DNA from: a virus
Virus genome (UHGV): UHGV-0797471
DNA length: 42,236 nucleotides
Reading direction: 5' to 3' (one strand)
Under the pieces are notes generated by a model. That model ran no database searches and was not told the DNA's origin. It was given only the letters and a program-made list of their open reading frames with translations. Below, piece by piece: positions 3,642-12,280 of the stretch. The position numbers and the translations under genes were made by a program. Position 1 is the first letter of the stretch. Each line of letters begins with the position of its first letter.

Positions 3642-4450
3642 TTAGCCCTCACCAGAAAGTTAAATGCAATATTTCGCGGTCTGACGGCAACAAAATTCAC
3701 ACCATCACCCACAGAGTTACTGGTGAAATTAAATCGTGAAAATCCTGGCTGATTTCCGGCGATACCATCATGAAAATTAATTGTGTGGCCCGCACCATCG
3801 CCTATATTCCCGGCAAACTGAGAAAAGTTTGTAGCTGCCTGCCAGCTTAATAATTCGCGACCACCGTCTGCACCTCGCCCGTCATCCCAGATACGAATGA
3901 AATCACCGCGGGCTTCAGGTAATACCAGCGAAGGAAACACTTTCGCCAGCACAGGGTAATCAGAGGCAGAAAATTTCGCCCCGTTAAACTTCAAAAACAC
4001 CATACCGGACCAGCTGTCGATGACAGAATTTGGCATTGCAGCGGACGGCCAGAAGAACGGAACGCCAATAGCTGGGGCACCTTCTCCCAAACCAAGGTTT
4101 TCGAGAGCTGTTTTCACCGTGCCGTCCGATTTGATATCGCCAAACGGATTCTTGCGGCTCAGGTATTCAACAGCAAACCCCGATCCCAGCAATTCAACAA
4201 AACCGGGCAGATCACCATTATCAAGCACATCCCGTTGCGTTTTATCACTTACAAACTGGGCCAGAGCTGCAGCAATAAAGCTGGCCTGCCGAATAACCTT
4301 ATTGACTTGCGCACTGGAGGCTTTCCCTGCTGTAAATCCAGATAAAAGCGCGGGCAACGCTTCCCATTCCTCCTGCGATATAACATTGGCATTTCGATCC
4401 GTTGCAAACGCTTTAAAGTCATTTTTCGCCATCAGAGTAATACTCCCCAT
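3638..4450 (-). CDS. Tail fibre protein (constant N-terminus plus currently expressed variable C-terminus)
   Basis: Position between baseplate genes and assembly protein; crossover site lies inside the ORF at codons 117-124. Confidence 0.65.
4082..4107. repeat. Invertase crossover site (hix/gix-like), right copy
   Basis: TTCTCCCAAACCAAGGTTTTCGAGAG; inverted partner of 2261-2286, about 22 of 26 positions matching. Confidence 0.55.
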
Positions 4451-5112
4451 GCTCCTACATCAAAACCACTGATGAATTCGTTATCCATATCAAAACCAAA
4501 AAATTTTGAGCCTTCCGATGGGGTTTCCACCGAAGGTGTTTCAATGCCACCCGCCCATACCCCGGCGGCTTTTACTGTGAGATACCCCTGTTTAATTGCC
4601 GCAATTAACTCACGCGATACATCTGAAATATCAGTATCAGGAAAGACCCAGACCGATATCGTCATGTCCTGGTTATCGACTATCTGCATTCGCAGCCCGG
4701 ATCCTGCTGTTGCCGCGTCAAGAATTGCCGGAAGCGAATCATTCCGTCCGTCCCAGTTATTAATCGCAATCTTCGCTTTAAGAATGACACGATAAGTTTC
4801 ATCGCTGAGATACATGTATCCTGAATCAGGATCGTATGGTCCCTGCCATACCCCCTGATCATATCCAAGCCCGTCGGTATCCCAGCTGAAATAGACACCT
4901 GAGATAGGCTGGCTGACAACACGGCTACGTCCGATCCACAATCCAAGGATGTCAAGTTGCACACCAACCGCAGAGTCAATATCAAATGCACTAATCAGCC
5001 CTCTGGTGGCAGCCGCAACATCAATAAGTGGCCGGGTCATCAGATCAACATGCGCAAGAAATTTAGGTTTGGTGGCGTGGTAGTTCGTGATTAGTTCGGT
5101 GTATTTGCTCAT
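4432..5112 (-). CDS. Tail/baseplate protein (wedge-like)
   Basis: Position between baseplate J-like gene and tail fibre; 19-nt overlap with tail fibre start. Confidence 0.45.
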
Positions 5113-6308
5113 GACTCCACCGTTATAACGATATTTTTCGGGGTACAGGACGCAGATTCGTTGTATCTGATATCAATGTTTGATGACGACAAAGCCCCCG
5201 GGGATTTCCCAATCGTCAGTTCCTGAATATCGTAATAGCGTGCATTCCCGCCACTCACCACGCCAAGATTCGCCGGTGAGTAAATGCGACTTAAAAGGAC
5301 CGAATCACCAATCATCAGACTATTGATATAGTCGGAAATAGCCTGCTGGATCTGCTGCCCTATCTGTGAGGTATAACCCGTAAAAACTTTTAATTTAATC
5401 AGGGCATAAACAGGCACATCACTGGAACGCGAGAATTTGATTACATGGGGATTGCCGTATTTATCCGGAACCGTAACGGATGTTGTACCGTGAGTGGCTG
5501 TCCCCTGGCCTTTATTCCCTCTGATAGCCTGAGCAATATCCGTTACATCACCGCCATCCACAATTACAGCAACAGAGTGTGGCGGTAACCCGTTACCGTC
5601 CTCCGAACCAGTATCGTTTTCATAGAGTTTGTGGCGGGTTACACCGGTAACATTAGAAACAGCACCATCCAGTGCTTCAAATGGGGTTATTGATGGCAAC
5701 GCAACACTTTGCGACTGGCGGATACGTAACTCAGCGTCAGTTTCTGCCGGAGTGCCCACAGTGGCTGCAGCAGGATTGGTTACCGAAACCCAGCCACGGG
5801 TTGGCGTATTAATTTCAGTGATAGTTCCAGCCAGCGCCGCCACTGCACCACTGACGGAACATGTTGCGGTCACCATCACTGTACCATCCACGCCTACCAC
5901 CACTGAAGCAGGCAAACGCCATATCACATTATTACTGTCTTTCACGCTGCCATTAATGATGGTTGTTCCGGCAGTTCCTGTAAGAAGCAAATCAACCGTA
6001 GAGTTCGTCGCGCCTTTACGTGAAATACCATTTATTTTCACGTTACAGGTCAGTGCAGCCCCATAGCCGGTTGCCGGTGAAAAACAGTTGTAGACAGTTA
6101 TCGCAGTATTATTGGCATCATGAATCGCCAGCGCCATCAGAGCCACCATCTGGCCGTCTTTGCTGTCCGGTTCGAGGTAGGCATCACTGCCATAAATCTG
6201 CTGAAAATAGCTAATCAGGGTGCTGAGTATCGTCTGATAATCAGGCGCACTGATCCCCTCCGCGGTTACCTTTGCAGATAAACCGAGAGAATCAAGGTTC
6301 AGAGCCAT
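5109..6308 (-). CDS. Baseplate J-like protein
   Basis: Size (399 aa) and position in baseplate cluster; overlapping stop/start with neighbours. Confidence 0.5.
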   Translation of the reverse strand: MALNLDSLGLSAKVTAEGISAPDYQTILSTLISYFQQIYGSDAYLEPDSKDGQMVALMALAIHDANNTAITVYNCFSPATGYGAALTCNVKINGISRKGATNSTVDLLLTGTAGTTIINGSVKDSNNVIWRLPASVVVGVDGTVMVTATCSVSGAVAALAGTITEINTPTRGWVSVTNPAAATVGTPAETDAELRIRQSQSVALPSITPFEALDGAVSNVTGVTRHKLYENDTGSEDGNGLPPHSVAVIVDGGDVTDIAQAIRGNKGQGTATHGTTSVTVPDKYGNPHVIKFSRSSDVPVYALIKLKVFTGYTSQIGQQIQQAISDYINSLMIGDSVLLSRIYSPANLGVVSGGNARYYDIQELTIGKSPGALSSSNIDIRYNESASCTPKNIVITVES

Positions 6309-6661
6309 TACGCCTCCGATGTAACAGTCGTTATTCCATAAAGAGTGTCGATTTCAGCGGAAAACATGACACGTCGGGTCGTGGTATCCAGCGTCGTATT
6401 GAAAGAGAGGATTGATTTAACGCCCTGCGTTTCGAGGATGCGCTTACGGATCGCCAGGTTGTAGGTTTCCGGCTTCTGCTTACCGAGTACGGACTGGATC
6501 CACGGAGTCCCCTCGGTGGTGTCGAGAAACCATTGCCCATACCACAATTCGAATCGCGTTTTTACCGCCTGCGCCACGGCCTCCGGTGAGTTAATCAGCC
6601 AGGTGTCATCACCGCTGCCAAAGGTGTAATCGCCATCGGCGTCTTCACGTCTGTATCGCAT
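6308..6661 (-). CDS. Small baseplate protein (gp46/W-like)
   Basis: 117 aa, tightly coupled between the V-like and J-like genes. Confidence 0.45.
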   Translation of the reverse strand: MRYRREDADGDYTFGSGDDTWLINSPEAVAQAVKTRFELWYGQWFLDTTEGTPWIQSVLGKQKPETYNLAIRKRILETQGVKSILSFNTTLDTTTRRVMFSAEIDTLYGITTVTSEA

Positions 6662-7413
6662 CAGTTTACCCCGTCGGTACTGCTTCCACCGCGCTGAACA
6701 CCACCATGAGTGTGCGTATCATCGATTGGCTTGCCGTTAGCCTTCACGCTCCCCAAAAACTCAACAGCACCAGTGATTTTTGAAGCCACACCAGAAACCA
6801 CAGACCCCACCATGCCCCCCATCCAGGTTAACAGGCCATGAATGGTTACTTTCTCAGAAAAATCAGCCAGGGGGGCAACCACATCAAGCCCCCCCGGAGC
6901 GACAATTTTAATTTTCCTGGTATCAGGATTAAGCTCAAAATAGGTGCTGCCGTCGTCACTACGCAACTGTGTGGCACTGGTATTAATACCGCTAATCTTC
7001 CTAGCCTGCGACTGGGGACCGACAATACAAAACGCATCCGATAAATCATGCATTCTGTCATCAACCGTCTCCTGTATCCCGCCGCTCTGCCACCAGAAAT
7101 CAATACAACGATCGGCAAAAACGACAAGACACTCATCCCCAGCTTTTACCGGAAAAGTCAACGTACAGCCTCCGCCGCGCGGGAATACCACTGGCACATC
7201 CACCAGCAATGGGTAATTTTTGGTAATGCGGTTACCGTCGTTATCCTTTTCAACTGACCGGATAGCTGGCTGCACAACCGCCGTCACCGCGTCAGGATCG
7301 AATGACTGAATAATGCCAGGCAAGGCGACACGGATCTGGTTCTTTGTTGTTTCCCGTTCAGATTTAAATGTTTCGGCAAGATCGCCACTGCGGGTCTGGT
7401 CAGTTACTGCCAT
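6661..7413 (-). CDS. Baseplate assembly / spike protein (V-like)
   Basis: 250 aa with Gly-rich C-terminal stretch; position in baseplate operon. Confidence 0.45.
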   Translation of the reverse strand: MAVTDQTRSGDLAETFKSERETTKNQIRVALPGIIQSFDPDAVTAVVQPAIRSVEKDNDGNRITKNYPLLVDVPVVFPRGGGCTLTFPVKAGDECLVVFADRCIDFWWQSGGIQETVDDRMHDLSDAFCIVGPQSQARKISGINTSATQLRSDDGSTYFELNPDTRKIKIVAPGGLDVVAPLADFSEKVTIHGLLTWMGGMVGSVVSGVASKITGAVEFLGSVKANGKPIDDTHTHGGVQRGGSSTDGVN

Positions 7414-7420
7414 TGGTAGG

Positions 7421-7457
7421 CTCCAAAAAGCAAAAAACCCGCCGGGTGGCAGGTTTT
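7421..7457 (-). terminator. Intrinsic terminator downstream of moron cassette
   Basis: Minus-strand RNA AAAACCUGCC-ACCC-GGCGGGUUUU followed by UUGCUUUUU; about 9-10 bp stem. Confidence 0.5.
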
Positions 7458-7473
7458 ATCTCATGAAGAATGA

Positions 7474-7986
7474 CTATCGGTGGATAGTATTAAAGTATTC
7501 AGAAAGCTGATTATCAGTTATCAAACACAACTGCATCAAATAAATAGAGTATTTCAATAACTTTTCATCACGAACGGGGGCGGGACGTAAATACTTCCCG
7601 CCGTGAAAGAGATTATTTCTTATATACGGGATCTGCTTTAATGCTTCAGCAAGAGAATGAGGTTCGATTGGAGGTTTATCCTCCCACGAAAAATCATGCC
7701 TCTGCTGCTTCACAGGTTGCTGACATAGATACTCAACTGCCCTATCGACATTTCTATTTCCAGTAGGATATAAAGGCCGCGTATCATCAGTAGCGTAGCG
7801 GCTCCAGTCAGCACCGATTAGATAATTTCTACGATCAGTTTTTTTGAAATTAATTCTTTTTAACGCATATTCGAAACGCGAAAAATAATTAAAAAACCTT
7901 ATAACAAGAGTAATATCAATTCCGCCGAGAAGTTCCTGAAAGTCAGGGTCTTGAAATGAATTCAAAGGATCATCATCAACTGTCAC
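7474..7986 (-). CDS. Moron protein with HEPN-like R-x4-H motif (candidate RNase-type toxin / abortive-infection protein)
   Basis: RNNLFH at residues 123-128 of 170 fits the R-x4-6-H HEPN signature; AT-rich; inserted between baseplate genes; ATGA overlap with the upstream gene. Confidence 0.4.
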   Translation of the reverse strand: MTVDDDPLNSFQDPDFQELLGGIDITLVIRFFNYFSRFEYALKRINFKKTDRRNYLIGADWSRYATDDTRPLYPTGNRNVDRAVEYLCQQPVKQQRHDFSWEDKPPIEPHSLAEALKQIPYIRNNLFHGGKYLRPAPVRDEKLLKYSIYLMQLCLITDNQLSEYFNTIHR

Positions 7987-8318
7987 TTGCTGCTCACTTT
8001 TTTACACGGGAAAGATCCAATGATTTTCGGCGCGTCCATGCTGTTCTGCAGCAGCTGGACGTTCAGGAAAGCTTTTCCGTTACGTTTCACAAACTCAAAG
8101 CCGTAATTGTTACCATCACGGGAAGGCATCAGGCCCATGTCCATTTTCATGTTTGAATAGTCACCATCTTTTCCCAGAAATTTTATCTTCTGTGATGTGA
8201 CAGTTTCACCGTTAATAACAGTCATTCCGTCACCGGTCATCGTGTAGTTGCCGCACTGAATTGCAGCCATCGCCGGAGCAGTAACCATCATAACTAACGC
8301 CAAACATAACCGTTTCAT
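7983..8318 (-). CDS. Small secreted/periplasmic protein (signal peptide), moron
   Basis: N-terminus MKRLCLALVMMVTAPAMA is a typical Sec signal peptide; 111 aa; not a structural-protein pattern. Confidence 0.5.
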   Translation of the reverse strand: MKRLCLALVMMVTAPAMAAIQCGNYTMTGDGMTVINGETVTSQKIKFLGKDGDYSNMKMDMGLMPSRDGNNYGFEFVKRNGKAFLNVQLLQNSMDAPKIIGSFPCKKVSSK

Positions 8319-9382
8319 TAAAGCCCTCTTTCCCTCGCTGATGAGGAAACAAGATCCGCCGCGCCACGCGCTTCACACATCATATCCATGTACCACGCCT
8401 GGCCCCTTGTGTCGCCAGTGTACATAATCCCGCGCACAATATAAACGCCATCCGTTGCGATGCTGGCAGGCTGCGATGTGGTGCCGCTGAGCGTGATATT
8501 TCCGTCCGTGTTCTGGTCGGTGATCTGACCACCAGCCATCGCAATATCGTTGTTCGACAACGCGGTACGATAGACGGAAGCCTGATCCAGCTGAATGAGC
8601 CCGTTAACCCGGATGTTCGGATTAATAAGCGCGCGGACGTTTACGCCGTTACCGATAGTCTGCTGCGGCATTCCAATAAGCCCGGTAGCGCTGTTGAGCA
8701 CAATCGCTTCGTGAACATATTCGTTATTCACCACCATCTGGCGCTGACCGTCCACGAATTGCCATGTTGCGCCACATTGTCCGGCTACGTTATCCATTAG
8801 ATGCCGCGTCATGCCAAAGAGTACCCGCCCCCGGGGGAATACAGTAGCAGGCATTTCAGGCGTCAGGCCTTCGGTCGCGCCTTTGGCTTCGAAGTCTTTC
8901 ATCAGCGCACGGTTCACATCAGCGACCGTGTAACCGGCAGCCAGCGTCTGTGAGGTTATACTGGTAGCAAAAGCCAGATCAGTATCTGCTGCCTGAATCA
9001 GGACGTAGGTATCAACCGGACTGTCTTTTCCTGTGACCGAGTAGCGAATTTCACCGCTGAAAATCAGTCCGTAGTTGCGGCCATCTCTCTGGCCCACGTC
9101 CGCCGCGTCAACTTCCCGCACGGTCCCTACGTCGCTTGCTGACACCTCCGGCGCGATACCGTCGTAACCGGCAATCAGACGCACTTTCGAAAACTCCTGC
9201 CCGGTAATTCGGTTCACAGTATCTGCCGAGAGGTTATAAATTTTGATAGTCCCTACCCGGGACGCGCTGCTGATGTTGAACCAGTCGATCGTAAAGGTGA
9301 CTTTGAAATCACTTAGCTCAATTCCCTGACCGTTCCCGTCCACAAGCTGCAGCTCGAAATGTCTCATCCAGTTCTGTGACAT
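8318..9382 (-). CDS. Tail/baseplate hub-like protein
   Basis: 354 aa between tape-measure-proximal genes and baseplate cluster. Confidence 0.45.
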   Translation of the reverse strand: MSQNWMRHFELQLVDGNGQGIELSDFKVTFTIDWFNISSASRVGTIKIYNLSADTVNRITGQEFSKVRLIAGYDGIAPEVSASDVGTVREVDAADVGQRDGRNYGLIFSGEIRYSVTGKDSPVDTYVLIQAADTDLAFATSITSQTLAAGYTVADVNRALMKDFEAKGATEGLTPEMPATVFPRGRVLFGMTRHLMDNVAGQCGATWQFVDGQRQMVVNNEYVHEAIVLNSATGLIGMPQQTIGNGVNVRALINPNIRVNGLIQLDQASVYRTALSNNDIAMAGGQITDQNTDGNITLSGTTSQPASIATDGVYIVRGIMYTGDTRGQAWYMDMMCEARGAADLVSSSARERGL

Positions 9383-9384
9383 GC

Positions 9385-9687
9385 TTACTCCGTTGATACC
9401 AGTAAATGGCTGCGACCGCCCAGGTCAGTTTTTGTGGGGTAATCCTGTGTGTTGTCATCACAGACCACCACCAGCTTAAAACCAAGCCCCATACAGGCGT
9501 ACTGCGCCAGCAGGTCAGCACCAGTGACGAGAGGAATACCGGAGATTACCGGCTCCCCTCTGTCGTTCTGCAGGTCCATAATCCAGTACAGATCGCGCCA
9601 TATGATGCTAATCCGCCAGGTGACACCACCCAGGACGATGCTGAACTGCTGGTTGTCCGCTGTCAGCGGAATTTCCTGAATTGTCAT
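9385..9687 (-). CDS. Tail protein (small)
   Basis: 100 aa, translationally coupled within the tail operon. Confidence 0.4.
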   Translation of the reverse strand: MTIQEIPLTADNQQFSIVLGGVTWRISIIWRDLYWIMDLQNDRGEPVISGIPLVTGADLLAQYACMGLGFKLVVVCDDNTQDYPTKTDLGGRSHLLVSTE

Positions 9688-10274
9688 TAGCCGCCCCCCA
9701 GTAATGACGCCACGTTACCCGTGATGCTTTTCAGCAGTGAAGTATCTGGAGGCTTTGTGGTTTTGTTGCCGCTGTTCTGTACCGCCGACGTGCTGGCCCC
9801 TTCCTTCATGTTGGTTTTATCCGCGACGGTAATCTGCTGTGTCCGGGAGATAATGACCTCCCTCAGGGTGAGGACGGCGGACAGGACGTTTTCGGTTGTC
9901 TTGTCCGTCGTCACTTCCAGCGCCCGGATCAACATGTTGCTGTACAGCCGTTTACCGGTTACCACATCGAAGGGGATACGGCTTTCCTGCAGACCCAGTA
10001 GCTCCTGATACGTCTGCTGAGGACTCAGGCCGAGCAGGCTGGTAGCCGTCAGGTTACTGGCAAAATCCAGCAATGCGCCGCCACCGGCGAAACCAACCTC
10101 CATCACCACTTCTGACGGTTTTTTATAGGCATGATCAGCGACAGCGGCCCCGACCTCTACCGGATGCTCTGTTATTTCAAGCATATCTGTATGCTTCTCT
10201 GAAATAACAACACTGGGAACAATCATTCCTATTTTTCTGCTCTGCTGATGAAAAAGTGTAGAGAGAATATCCAC
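9687..10274 (-). CDS. Tail protein downstream of tape measure
   Basis: 195 aa; start abuts tape measure stop. Confidence 0.4.
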   Translation of the reverse strand: MDILSTLFHQQSRKIGMIVPSVVISEKHTDMLEITEHPVEVGAAVADHAYKKPSEVVMEVGFAGGGALLDFASNLTATSLLGLSPQQTYQELLGLQESRIPFDVVTGKRLYSNMLIRALEVTTDKTTENVLSAVLTLREVIISRTQQITVADKTNMKEGASTSAVQNSGNKTTKPPDTSLLKSITGNVASLLGGG

Positions 10275-12280
10275 TAACCCACCCTCACCTGATTACTTCG
10301 CATGACCTGAGCATTTGCAGACTGTTGCCGACGTGCAACCTCATTACCGACAGCGTGCGGATCTCCGCCACCGTAAATGTGGTAGGTATTTTGCTGGTTA
10401 ACCTCTGTCACTTTGCCACTAATTCCCGCCACGGCAGCCTTATTAATCAGCTCTCGAGAATAGATATTTCTTCCATTCTCATGCTGGATAATGCTGCTCA
10501 TCAATGCTGACATGGTTTGCGGATCGCTCATATTCAGGGCAGCCCGGGGATCCACTCCCAGTCGTTGCGATACAGCCCTGATATACGCTGTTGTGTTGTT
10601 ATTATCAGACGCAGGTGCCCAGGTAGAGATAATTTTCTCCACACTGTTTATTCCCCGTCCGGCGTACAGCATTAACTGACGAGCAAGAGCCCGTAATCCA
10701 TCAAAGGCAGTTTCAAATCTGGCAAATCGCCCGCCCGGGCGTTCAAGAGAAGCCCCTGCCTGACCAGCAAAATTAAGGTTTCCCGGATTGTTATTCCGTT
10801 CTCCTCGTTTCGTAGCCTGTGCATATTGTTCCGGCTCAGCACCTGGAATATCTGACTGAATATTTGCGCCTTTTACGGTATGAGGATTACGACCAAAATC
10901 GGTATCAATGCCAAGCCAGCGCAATGAATCTCCAATATTTTGTTTCGTGTAATCCCAGGATGACTTCGCACTGGCACCAATATTTTCGCGATCAGAGTAC
11001 AAATACGCAGCATAAGCCATCCAGCCTTTTAACCACGGCGGGACCGGCAAACCTGATATTTTCCCGAAAGCCCCCAGAACCCTGGATACCCAGACACCCG
11101 CGATGAATGTACCAAGGATTTCCAGTGCATTTTGCCAGCCGCCAACACCATCTTTTAGTTCCAGAAGGTGATCACGAAGCCAGGTGATCGCATCCTTCGC
11201 TTTATCTATTGCCGGTTGCCATTTTTCCCAGTCGATAAGACTGTTACCGCCTTCTTTCCATGTTTTGTAGTCTTCCCACAAGAGACCGAGAGCCACGATC
11301 AGACCGGTAATCAGCCCTATAGGTGACATCCAGAAAGTAGAGTTAAGTATCCGCATGGCGACAACCAGACCGCCGATAACCTCTATCAGGGTTTTCGTTT
11401 CGGCATCCAGTTTCCCCCACCACTCGATGATATCTCCGACACCATCGACTATCCGAAATGCTACCCGCCCGACTATCTCACCCAGCCAGAGGATCCCCTT
11501 TATGACCTTTGTGATGGTGACTTCAATTTTGGGAAAATTTTCAATTATCTTTTTGCGCAGGTTATCAATCTGCCCCGCCAGTCCGTCCGCAAGATTCGAT
11601 CCGATTTTGTCCCGCGCCATCCTGGCCATTTCACCGAGCGATTTCAGCGAGGTCATAAACCGGTTTGACGATAAGGCAGCCTGATCGGCATTAAATCCGA
11701 TCGCTTTCACCATTTCTGAATACTGAGCGCTGAACTGCCCCACTCCGCGACGCATAGCCATCAGGGTATTTTCGTCAATGCCCAGCATCTGCGCATACTG
11801 GTTAGCCCGGTAATACGGCATGCTGCTGAGTTTCTGTCCAACGCCCGTAAAGATAGCAGCCATGTCACGCATGTTACCGCTGGCATCACGGGTCTGTACG
11901 CCCAGGCGATTCAGAAAGCCTTCTGCTCCGGGATTGTTACGAATAAACCGGGAGAGGCTTTCCAGAGAAGATCGCGCAGCGTCCACACTGCCGCCAACCT
12001 GCGAAACCGCATAGCCAATAGACTGAATTCCCTGGACCGTCGCGCCGGTGCGCTGTGACGCCCAGTAAAGATTATCCAGGCCGGAGGCGATCTTAGCCGT
12101 GAAGGCCACCACGGACAGCGCAGCCCCTTCAACAGCCAGCCCCATTTTGATGACATTTGCAGTTGTACCGGCGAGGACAGAACCGAACTTTTTCGCTCCT
12201 GCATCATCCACACGGAAGCCAAGCGAGACGAGGAAATCTTTAATAGTTTCAGCGTTCATTATCCTCTCTCCATTTCTCAA
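10274..12280 (-). CDS. Tail tape measure protein
   Basis: 668 aa; Ala/Gly-rich helical N-terminus with hydrophobic segments; sits after tube and chaperone. Confidence 0.7.
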   Translation of the reverse strand: MRNGERIMNAETIKDFLVSLGFRVDDAGAKKFGSVLAGTTANVIKMGLAVEGAALSVVAFTAKIASGLDNLYWASQRTGATVQGIQSIGYAVSQVGGSVDAARSSLESLSRFIRNNPGAEGFLNRLGVQTRDASGNMRDMAAIFTGVGQKLSSMPYYRANQYAQMLGIDENTLMAMRRGVGQFSAQYSEMVKAIGFNADQAALSSNRFMTSLKSLGEMARMARDKIGSNLADGLAGQIDNLRKKIIENFPKIEVTITKVIKGILWLGEIVGRVAFRIVDGVGDIIEWWGKLDAETKTLIEVIGGLVVAMRILNSTFWMSPIGLITGLIVALGLLWEDYKTWKEGGNSLIDWEKWQPAIDKAKDAITWLRDHLLELKDGVGGWQNALEILGTFIAGVWVSRVLGAFGKISGLPVPPWLKGWMAYAAYLYSDRENIGASAKSSWDYTKQNIGDSLRWLGIDTDFGRNPHTVKGANIQSDIPGAEPEQYAQATKRGERNNNPGNLNFAGQAGASLERPGGRFARFETAFDGLRALARQLMLYAGRGINSVEKIISTWAPASDNNNTTAYIRAVSQRLGVDPRAALNMSDPQTMSALMSSIIQHENGRNIYSRELINKAAVAGISGKVTEVNQQNTYHIYGGGDPHAVGNEVARRQQSANAQVMRSNQVRVG

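What the first reader, a model, noticed from the sequence alone, without database searches (positions are those of the whole stretch)
7414..8318. Moron cassette inside the baseplate operon: HEPN-motif protein plus signal-peptide protein with own terminator
Two tightly coupled genes on the minus strand interrupt otherwise contiguous tail genes. The 170-aa protein has RNNLFH near its C-terminus, fitting the HEPN R-x4-6-H RNase signature. The 111-aa protein has a canonical Sec signal peptide. A strong hairpin plus U-tract (7421-7457) follows on the same strand. The region is AT-rich.

Inference: acquired toxin / abortive-infection-like or host-interaction cargo riding on late transcription; the pairing with a secreted partner is unusual for HEPN proteins.
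Basis: partly seen in the sequence, partly recalled or inferred. Interest (0 to 1): 0.6.

Follow-up and report, generated by a model that had tools for sequence, protein, structure and literature searches.

The report
Swappable toxin slot in phage baseplate operon
Between two baseplate genes of this temperate E. coli phage lies a terminator-bounded slot where related prophages carry different toxin or defence-type genes; here it holds an unannotated, probable HEPN-type RNase, while the neighbouring secreted protein is a conserved phage gene and not part of the insert.

Summary
All the described features are present: two overlapping minus-strand genes between baseplate hub and spike, an RNNLFH motif, a Sec signal peptide, a terminator and low GC.

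Only the 170-aa gene (7474-7986) is acquired cargo. In 35 related loci the slot holds this gene (4 loci), nothing (4), or unrelated genes such as YafO toxin, Phd-Doc or an Mrr nuclease.

The 111-aa secreted protein (7983-8318) is a backbone gene. It has at least 410 homologue clusters, it stays when the slot is empty, and one locus has the HEPN-like gene without it. The two proteins are therefore not a functional pair.

The terminator (7425-7457) is the slot's fixed border. It lies 18-24 nt before the spike ATG in 28 of 30 cargo-bearing loci, with 13 stem variants and compensatory changes.

The most likely function is a stand-alone HEPN RNase acting in prophage defence, as HepS and Tha do. Activity and expression are untested.

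The parts
8318..9382 (-). Baseplate hub gene (354 aa), the upstream anchor of the locus.
   Evidence: phrog_196 'baseplate hub' 2e-88; weak PF22759 E217_GP41 match. 77-96% identical in Mulock, SEN34 and YP3.
7983..8318 (-). Conserved backbone gene for a 111-aa Sec-secreted small beta-barrel protein ('sp111'; phrog_3443). It is not part of the acquired cargo.
7474..7986 (-). Variable cargo gene: a 170-aa stand-alone HEPN-like protein, a putative RNase (phrog_19013).
7858..7884 (-). FSRFEYALK motif (residues 35-43), which contains E39-x3-K43, the HEPN-type upstream acidic Ex3[KR] element.
   Evidence: E39 is invariant (145 of 145) and K43 is in 143 of 145. It lies in predicted helix 25-44. Ex3[KR] is described for HEPN in PMC3710099.
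7594..7620 (-). RNNLFHGGK motif (residues 123-131), the putative catalytic R-N-x3-H of HEPN.
   Evidence: R123, H128 and G129 are invariant; N124 is in 144 of 145. The motif sits at the C-terminal end of helix 112-127, with H128 opening the loop. In the only PDB sequence hit it aligns on catalytic R401/N402/H406 of Csx1-Crn2.
7425..7457 (-). Intrinsic terminator (stem 7434-7457, T-tract 7425-7433). It is the conserved downstream border of the cargo slot, about 20 nt before the spike ATG.
   Evidence: A hairpin with a T-tract lies 18-24 nt upstream of the spike ATG in 28 of 30 cargo-bearing loci, and also in the cargo-less L045. There are 13 distinct stems with compensatory C-G/T-A and G-C/A-T changes. 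It is absent where sp111 abuts the spike.
6661..7413 (-). Spike (membrane-puncturing) gene, the downstream anchor. Its GGAG ribosome-binding site (7421-7424) follows the terminator directly.
   Evidence: PF18352 5e-44 plus PF18946 Apex. PGAP names it a 'membrane-puncturing spike protein'.

Best explanation
The locus is a cargo hotspot inside the baseplate operon of a lineage of temperate Enterobacterales myoviruses (relatives of SEN34/Brunovirus, Mulock, YP3 and vB_EcoM-606R2).

The backbone order is hub - sp111 (a conserved secreted protein) - [slot] - terminator - spike. In this window the slot holds one AT-rich acquired gene. Its 170-aa product is a stand-alone member of a large, unannotated HEPN-like family.

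Inferred mechanism: the protein forms a HEPN-type homo-oligomer in which R123/N124/H128 and E39 build a metal-independent RNase site. It stays inactive until a phage-derived trigger appears. It then cleaves RNA (tRNA, rRNA or mRNA) and aborts infection by competing phages. This is how the prophage solo HEPN proteins HepS and Tha work.

The terminator most plausibly stops cargo-derived transcription from running into the spike and baseplate genes in a lysogen. Late transcription must therefore read through it.

Shown here: the slot architecture, cargo variability, family size, the conservation pattern, the position of the motif in the model, and terminator covariation.

Inferred only: RNase activity, oligomerisation, the trigger, the defence role and the timing of expression.
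For: Slot: 35 loci with hub and spike anchors (34 also have sp111) carry the HEPN-like family (4), nothing (4) or unrelated cargo. That cargo includes YafO toxin with a partner, Phd-Doc, a membrane-anchored Mrr_cat nuclease, secreted or membrane proteins, and IS elements. The cargo region has GC 0.36-0.47 in all but one locus, against 0.51-0.57 for hub and spike in the four phages measured. In E. coli, 352 genomes match the hub-to-spike query and 25 carry this cargo; annotations under the match in others include DUF4282, DUF2335 and YafO genes.

Defence context: distant members sit beside HEPN_AbiV, TIR_2, Mrr/DEAD, an nSTAND3 ATPase and XRE+ImmA genes. Seven of ten hand-picked upstream neighbours are SLFN/AlbA_2, Abi_C (x2), TIR_2, HNH, DUF4365 and HEPN_Swt1. 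In viral contigs the family sits at varied positions outside this slot.

Precedent: HepS (PMC13043305) and Tha (PMC11087260).

Against: The gene is translationally coupled to sp111, which is coupled to the hub. No promoter stands out (6 sites found against 5.1 expected). Expression in the lysogen, which a defence role requires, is therefore unproven, and the gene may be expressed only late.

The ten neighbours were chosen by eye from 50, so they are not an unbiased census. No recurrent partner gene was found.
Confidence: 0.6

Rival explanations
1. One reading: the 170-aa HEPN toxin and the 111-aa secreted protein were acquired together and work as a pair (toxin plus partner or immunity protein).
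For: The two ORFs overlap by 4 nt (GTGA) and are co-oriented. Both have GC below the backbone. Several HEPN-carrying loci keep the same overlap.
Against: sp111 has at least 410 homologue clusters against 27 for the 170-aa protein in the same kind of search. sp111 is present with unrelated cargo and with an empty slot. L005 has a 74%-identical HEPN-like gene but no sp111 homologue. None of 78 metagenomic family members shows a recurrent neighbour. A periplasmic protein cannot neutralise a cytoplasmic RNase.
Confidence: 0.04
2. The 170-aa protein is a late-expressed RNase that serves the phage's own lytic cycle, not the lysogen. It could act in host RNA shut-off, in attack on co-resident competitors, or in counter-defence such as degrading cyclic-oligonucleotide signals.
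For: It is translationally coupled into the late tail operon and has no intergenic space for a promoter. The best PDB sequence hit is Csx1-Crn2, a cOA-signalling RNase / ring-nuclease fusion.
Against: Only a minority of otherwise near-identical phages carry it, so it is dispensable for lytic growth. Slot-mates in relatives are classic TA or defence genes. Distant relatives lie in bacterial defence-island-like neighbourhoods with no evident phage genes nearby. The conserved terminator suggests insulation of lysogen-phase transcription.
Confidence: 0.2
3. It is an addiction or stabilisation toxin, as in a type II TA system, whose antidote is unrecognised. It maintains the prophage and does not defend against phages.
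Against: There is no MNT or other small partner ORF in the slot: the 60 nt between the stop codon and the spike ATG hold only the terminator and the RBS. The family is mostly stand-alone with variable neighbours.
Confidence: 0.1
4. It is a non-enzymatic helical protein, for example a tail-assembly accessory or regulatory protein, and the R...H pattern is incidental.
For: The bare motif is common by chance (64% of shuffles). No significant match to any HEPN model or solved structure was found by Foldseek or hhalign.
Against: R123, H128 and E39 are the only invariant side chains among 145 sequences at about 30% identity. Relatives with the same tail genes lack the protein. Most family members seen lie in contigs with no evident phage genes nearby.
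Confidence: 0.06

Closest known systems
HepS, the 'HEPN Solo' abortive-infection protein of Salmonella prophage Gifsy-1 (PMC13043305; PDB 9OIJ/9OIK)
   Same: A single small prophage-encoded protein with an R-x4-H HEPN motif and no co-occurring partner or antitoxin. It sits in an accessory-gene position of a temperate phage. HepS rests inactive and is triggered by a tail protein of invading phages.
   Different: No sequence or structure match appeared in any PDB search (top 60), so this is a different family. [quoted passage not shown] The tetramer, tRNA anticodon cleavage and trigger of HepS are untested here.
Tha-1/Tha-2, the tail-activated HEPN systems of S. aureus prophages (PMC11087260)
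   Same: A prophage-borne HEPN RNase with an R-N-x3-H motif (RNSIMH in Tha-1). It is activated by structural tail proteins and acts through abortive infection.
HEPN superfamily as defined by Anantharaman et al. 2013 (PMC3710099), including Abi_2 (AbiD/F), Apea, Swt1 and Csx1/Csm6
   Same: R-[N]-x3-H at the end of a helix followed by a loop, an upstream E-x3-K element, an insert before the motif helix, small size, and defence-island and mobile-element contexts.
   Different: No existing family model detects it at threshold. The acidic motif is in the first long helix. A beta-hairpin (48-59) and a short helix are inserted after helix 1.
P2-like phage hotspots, such as the Z/fun locus downstream of a baseplate gene (PMC9122126; bioRxiv 10.1101/2024.10.15.618418), and morons in general
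   Same: A fixed position between conserved tail genes where unrelated, AT-rich, defence- or toxin-type genes replace one another. The position is bounded by a terminator.
   Different: This is a different phage lineage and a different position (hub/sp111 to spike). Cargo can be translationally coupled to the upstream late gene instead of having an obvious promoter of its own.

Membership tests
HEPN superfamily (PMC3710099) | A conserved R-x4-6-H motif. | tested here: met
   R123-NNLF-H128. R and H are invariant in 145 of 145 diverse members.
HEPN superfamily (PMC3710099) | A polar residue (N, D or H) immediately after the conserved R. | tested here: met
   N124 is present in 144 of 145 members.
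HEPN superfamily (PMC3710099) | [quoted passage not shown] | tested here: met
   AF2 model (pLDDT 91.4): helix 112-127, H128-G130 in the loop, last long helix 137-157. This rests on a predicted structure, not an experimental one.
HEPN superfamily (PMC3710099) | [quoted passage not shown] | tested here: inconclusive
   E39-x3-K43 is present and E39 is invariant.
HEPN superfamily (PMC3710099) | A four-helix up-down bundle resembling solved HEPN domains. | tested here: inconclusive
HEPN superfamily (PMC3710099) | A significant sequence or profile match to a curated HEPN family. | tested here: not met
   Pfam: no family for the window protein; Abi_2, HEPN_Apea, HEPN_Swt1 and DUF4145 appear only below threshold in about 9 of 145 members. 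NCBIfam and PADLOC: none. hhalign against a Swt1-HEPN profile: Prob 0.14%. PDB profile hit to Csx1-Crn2: E = 0.03-0.25.
HEPN superfamily (PMC3710099) | Metal-independent RNase activity that depends on R and H, and dimerisation that forms a composite site. | not testable with these tools
   This needs biochemistry, or at least a multimer prediction.
HepS family (PMC13043305) | Detectable homology to HepS (STM14_3211; PDB 9OIJ/9OIK). | tested here: not met
HEPN-MNT type II toxin-antitoxin system | An adjacent minimal nucleotidyltransferase antitoxin gene. | tested here: not met
   No such ORF exists in the slot. The neighbours are sp111 (secreted) and the terminator.
Moron / phage cargo hotspot (Juhala 2000; Rousset 2022) | The gene is present or absent, or replaced, between genes that are adjacent or conserved in related phages. 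| tested here: met
   Among 35 loci: 4 with the HEPN-like family, 4 empty, and the rest with unrelated cargo.
Moron / phage cargo hotspot (Juhala 2000; Rousset 2022) | Nucleotide composition distinct from the flanking genes. | tested here: met
   GC 0.384 and GC3 0.339, against 0.51-0.54 and 0.51-0.61 for hub and spike. The same holds for the cargo in SEN34, YP3 and Mulock.
Moron / phage cargo hotspot (Juhala 2000; Rousset 2022) | A downstream terminator. | tested here: met
   The terminator belongs to the slot and not to a particular cargo.
Moron / phage cargo hotspot (Juhala 2000; Rousset 2022) | Its own promoter, allowing expression from the repressed prophage. | tested here: inconclusive
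   There is no intergenic space upstream. Only weak 9-of-12 sigma-70-like sites lie inside sp111 (8209->8180), and the count is no higher than in shuffles. Transcript data are needed.
Periplasmic lysozyme / peptidoglycan-hydrolase inhibitors (PliC/MliC, PhiA), considered for sp111 | A specific fold and sequence match to these families. | tested here: inconclusive

The most novel reading that the evidence does not exclude
The 170-aa protein founds a new, very large family (about 2,400 clusters at 50% identity) of stand-alone HEPN-type RNases. These would act as single-gene abortive-infection sensors carried in prophage hotspots and bacterial defence islands.

In this phage lineage the protein sits in a terminator-insulated slot next to sp111, a conserved, fast-diverging periplasmic beta-barrel. 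sp111 may itself be a superinfection-exclusion factor aimed at the tail-tip machinery of incoming phages. If so, the hub-spike junction would be a two-layer protective locus, with an envelope layer and a cytoplasmic layer.
Probability: 0.25. Interest if true: 0.65.

Novelty: new member of a known kind. Interest (0 to 1): 0.42.

Why it matters
If the 170-aa protein is an active solo HEPN defence nuclease, it adds a widespread single-gene immune effector that no Pfam, NCBIfam or PADLOC model reached at threshold. Its trigger would be worth finding, because HepS and Tha both sense tail proteins.

The slot itself is a practical discovery site. In one well-delimited position (after sp111, before a recognisable terminator and the spike ATG), hundreds of Enterobacterales prophages display a rotating set of toxins, TA modules and secreted proteins. 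Many of these have no annotation.

The conserved terminator lies about 20 nt in front of an essential late gene. This implies terminator read-through in late transcription, which has not been examined for this phage group.

The conserved secreted protein in the middle of a baseplate operon is unexplained and deserves a test for superinfection exclusion.

Tried and rejected
1. Pfam, NCBIfam and PADLOC scans of both proteins gave nothing at threshold.
2. Foldseek of the 170-aa model against the PDB gave no match (best E = 2.7).
3. hhalign of the family profile gave no signal against the single HEPN_AbiV neighbour or the 142-aa cargo of L017. Against a 28-sequence Swt1-HEPN profile it was not significant, and only the motif-on-motif segment aligned.
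4. I tried to locate HepS in the Gifsy-1 record NC_010392 for a direct comparison. None of the seven candidate ORFs I translated had R100...H105; the LT2 record evidently differs from strain 14028 there.
5. The MAFFT alignment of the terminators (A5) shifted the 3' arm by one column in three sequences, so I did not use the count of structure pairs on it. I tabulated pairs anchored on the T-tract instead.
6. The promoter scan found no more sites than chance.
7. BLAST clustering of the neighbours of 78 metagenomic family members found no recurrent partner.
8. I considered sp111 as a lipoprotein and rejected it: Q at position -1 of the Cys means there is no lipobox.
9. I considered sp111 as an antitoxin and rejected it because it is exported.

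Full report
**1. What the window is**

The region is 100% identical to Escherichia phage vB_EcoM-606R2 and three sister phages. It also occurs as a chromosomal prophage in E. coli. More distant relatives are Salmonella phage SEN34 (Brunovirus), Klebsiella phages Mulock, GZ7 and RCIP0034, a Wanchaivirus, and Yersinia phage YP3.

On the minus strand the gene order is: tape measure (10274-12280), a 195-aa protein, a Pam3_gp18-type plug (9385-9687), the baseplate hub (8318-9382), a 111-aa ORF, a 170-aa ORF, the spike (6661-7413), a 117-aa ORF (6308-6661) whose homologue in L005 hits Sheath_initiator, and a 399-aa ORF (5109-6308) annotated as baseplate J in the matching phage record.

**2. Observation check**

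- The 111-aa ORF (7983-8318) starts on the last base of the hub stop (TAATG).
- The 170-aa ORF (7474-7986) starts at a GTG that overlaps the 111-aa stop (GTGA). Homologues begin at the equivalent position, which supports the GTG start.
- RNNLFH is residues 123-128.
- A 10-bp hairpin with a T-tract lies at 7425-7457.
- GC is 0.384 for the 170-aa gene and 0.452 for the 111-aa gene, against 0.51-0.54 for hub and spike.
- The signal peptide has a basic n-region, a hydrophobic core and an AMA|A site. These features hold in 30 of 30 homologues although the sequence drifts.

One caveat applies. The bare R-x4-6-H pattern means little by itself, because 64% of shuffles of this protein contain one.

**3. 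The two genes have different histories**

SEN34, YP3 and Mulock each have two genes between hub and spike. The first is always a homologue of the 111-aa protein (53-70% identity). The second is a different, mutually unrelated gene in each phage.

The 111-aa protein ('sp111', phrog_3443) has at least 410 homologue clusters. The named sources in the 120 listed are all Enterobacterales. The 170-aa protein gave 27 homologues in the same kind of search.

I used sp111 as an anchor to fetch 33 prophage loci from bacterial genomes. I located hub, sp111 and spike in these loci plus the window, three phage relatives and two earlier contigs. Of the 39, 35 had both slot borders. Results:
- The gap between sp111 and the spike ranges from 7-75 nt (empty slot: L040, L045, L046, L048) to 4.1 kb.
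- The 170-aa family fills the slot in 4 loci (window, L005, L006, L020).
- Other cargo includes a YafO-family toxin with an upstream partner, a Phd-Doc pair, a membrane-anchored Mrr_cat nuclease, a secreted tRNA_anti-like (OB-fold) protein, several small secreted or membrane proteins, and IS elements.
- The cargo region has low GC (0.36-0.47) in all but one locus.
- L005 carries a 74%-identical copy of the 170-aa gene but has a different secreted protein in place of sp111.

Within E. coli, 352 of 5,426 complete genomes match the hub-to-spike query, and only 25 carry this cargo. In the listed genomes the annotations under the match include DUF4282, DUF2335 or YafO genes instead.

The conclusion is that the 170-aa gene is acquired cargo in a hotspot, sp111 is a backbone gene, and the two are not a functional pair.

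**4. The terminator belongs to the slot**

The hairpin and the spike ribosome-binding site are nearly identical in the window and SEN34 despite different cargo, and Mulock has an analogous hairpin.

A hairpin with a T-tract lies 18-24 nt upstream of the spike ATG in 28 of 30 cargo-bearing loci (L030 has one farther away, at 59 nt) and in the cargo-less L045. It is missing where sp111 abuts the spike directly. All 30 upstream regions extracted, including two that the strict scan missed or placed differently, fold into a hairpin there.

They show 13 distinct stems with compensatory substitutions: C-G to T-A at pair 3, G-C to A-T at pair 4, and a fully different GGCCGC/GTGGCC stem in L028. The structure is therefore under selection.

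Only about 20 nt, containing the GGAG site, separate the terminator from the spike ATG. The essential spike and downstream baseplate genes can thus only be expressed by read-through. I infer that the terminator insulates late genes from cargo transcription in lysogens, and that late transcription is terminator-resistant or leaky. This is not shown.

**5. What the 170-aa protein is**

No Pfam, NCBIfam or PADLOC model matches it. PHROGs places it in phrog_19013, of unknown function.

An exhaustive profile search found 2,392 clusters at 50% identity with E<=1e-3, and 606 with E<=1e-30. Nearly all are stand-alone proteins of 155-180 aa. The public names seen for members are all 'hypothetical protein'.

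Across 145 diverse members (mean column identity 24%) the only invariant residues are E39, R123, H128 and G129. N124, N125, F127, K131, K43 and R139 are nearly invariant.

The AF2 model is confident (pLDDT 91.4, pTM 0.85). It has long helices at 25-44, 78-89, 112-127 and 137-157, a beta-hairpin at 48-59, and an insert at 90-111.

Measured against the criteria of the HEPN superfamily paper:
- R-x4-H is present and invariant.
- The residue after R is N.
- The motif occupies the last turn of a helix, and H128 opens the following loop.
- An E-x3-K element lies upstream.
- An insert precedes the motif helix.

Structure and sequence comparisons give consistent but weak support:
- Foldseek finds nothing.
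- The only PDB sequence hit is Csx1-Crn2 (E = 0.03-0.25). It aligns R123/N124/H128 on R401/N402/H406, the residues shown to form that enzyme's RNase site.
- Sub-threshold Pfam hits (Abi_2, HEPN_Apea, HEPN_Swt1, DUF4145) and PADLOC hits (Cas13a, CARF-HEPN, Csx1, Cas13-ApeA) are mostly to HEPN-type models.
- A profile-profile comparison with a Pfam-verified Swt1-HEPN family was not significant, although its single aligned segment was again motif on motif.

I therefore regard HEPN membership as probable (about 0.75) but not proven. The family is a divergent one that no Pfam, NCBIfam or PADLOC model reached at threshold.

**6. Context of the wider family**

Close relatives (>=52% identity) are always in the same hub-spike slot. 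More distant relatives occur in several settings:
- in viral contigs at other positions, such as just upstream of a very long ORF that may be a tape measure (L058), near tail-component genes of Klebsiella phage ST101-KPC2phi6.1, or beside an integrase-like gene (L062-64);
- after an XRE-HTH plus ImmA/IrrE peptidase pair;
- in a neighbourhood with HEPN_AbiV, TIR_2, RNase_T and Mrr/DEAD genes;
- next to an nSTAND3 ATPase.

Among 78 metagenomic members, neighbours are not recurrent. Ten upstream neighbours that I picked by eye from 50 included SLFN/AlbA_2, Abi_C (twice), TIR_2, HNH, DUF4365 and HEPN_Swt1. That selection is biased.

Rare fusions join the domain to DUF6884, a YaaA-like, probably DNA-binding domain.

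This picture fits a stand-alone defence or toxin effector. The closest characterised analogues are HepS, the solo HEPN of prophage Gifsy-1, which rests as an inactive tetramer, is triggered by tail-tip protein J and cleaves tRNA anticodon loops. The other analogues are Tha-1 and Tha-2 of staphylococcal prophages. Neither is detectably homologous to this protein. HepS (9OIJ/9OIK) never appeared in my PDB searches.

**7. sp111**

The protein is exported, so a virion-structural role is unlikely (inference).

Its divergence is decoupled from that of its neighbours. In YP3 the hub is 96% identical and the spike 88-91%, but sp111 is only 53%. One Serratia prophage (L041) carries five extra tandem paralogues.

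Both patterns suit a conflict-related periplasmic factor such as a superinfection-exclusion protein. This is a guess (about 0.4), not a finding.

**8. Verdict**

The locus is an ordinary kind of thing, a prophage cargo hotspot holding a probable HEPN toxin. It lies at a position and in a phage lineage for which my literature searches found no description, and its cargo belongs to a large family with no functional annotation. Known parallels are the P2 Z/fun hotspot downstream of a baseplate gene and the P2/P4 hotspots. Activity, trigger and timing of expression remain untested.

Noticed in passing
L003 (Yersinia phage YP3) 2532-2654 and 3456-3624: The slot cargo gene YP3_05 (266 aa) is flanked on both sides by the same direct repeat of about 115 nt (AAGTGAAGTTACACCATAACGAATAGTG...CTGTAAAGTGAGACTTT). 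This looks like a footprint of cassette insertion or duplication. YP3 also lacks the usual terminator before the spike.
   Followed up: partly
L041 (Serratia aquatilis prophage) 4501-8828: Besides the anchor copy, the slot holds five tandem paralogues of the secreted sp111 protein (4954-5310, 5471-5698, 6201-6593, 8090-8422, 8463-8828). An oppositely oriented 402-aa ORF that reads like an IS transposase (6807-8015; identified by eye, not scanned) interrupts the array. Such an expansion is typical of immunity or arms-race genes.
   Followed up: partly
window 7421-7457, and the equivalent position in about 30 loci: A covarying intrinsic terminator sits only about 20 nt upstream of the essential spike gene, inside what is otherwise one late operon. 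Spike and baseplate expression must therefore depend on terminator read-through or antitermination. I did not look for a late antiterminator in the window.
   Followed up: partly
L005 5479-5943: In this prophage the position after the hub is occupied by an unrelated 154-aa protein with its own signal-peptide-like N-terminus (MKRCSIFLIVSLSIPLSGIAAP...), not by sp111. It is followed by a 74%-identical copy of the HEPN-like gene. The 'secreted protein' position can therefore also be replaced.
   Followed up: no
L017 and L018, 4983-6142: The slot cargo is a 243-aa plus 142-aa gene pair. The 142-aa protein contains ...RAYYGMYHSALR... and ...AQRVNSDY..., which is reminiscent of classical HEPN (PF05168-type) proteins. 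Pfam gave no hit and hhalign against the 170-aa family was negative, so this is unverified.
   Followed up: partly
L002 (SEN34) 3743-4078 of the reverse complement; record KT630649 15497-15832: SEN34_20 is annotated as 77 aa, but tblastn aligns residues 1-109 of sp111 there. The annotated start is probably too far downstream, or the gene carries a lesion.
   Followed up: no
L001 (ON470579) 5019-6083, equivalent to window 8318-9382: The GenBank record splits the hub into two CDS (420 + 639 nt), whereas the window has one uninterrupted 354-aa ORF that matches full-length hubs of relatives. I did not check for a sequence difference.
   Followed up: no
L020 (CACSKA010000001.1, titled Chryseobacterium sp.): A contig labelled Chryseobacterium carries this Enterobacterales-type prophage, with the hub 93% and sp111 86% identical to the window. 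The record is likely contaminated or mislabelled.
   Followed up: no
P0167 (332 aa) and P0175 (650 aa): Rare fusions of the HEPN-like domain to DUF6884 (PF21818). Pfam's curators describe this as a YaaA-like, probably DNA-binding 'cantaloupe' fold.
   Followed up: partly
L006 1690-3666 (Pantoea prophage tape-measure gene): The tape-measure protein of a related prophage carries an SLT lytic-transglycosylase domain. That would be a plausible periplasmic target if sp111 is an inhibitor or exclusion factor. I did not examine this in the window's own tape measure (10274-12280).
   Followed up: no
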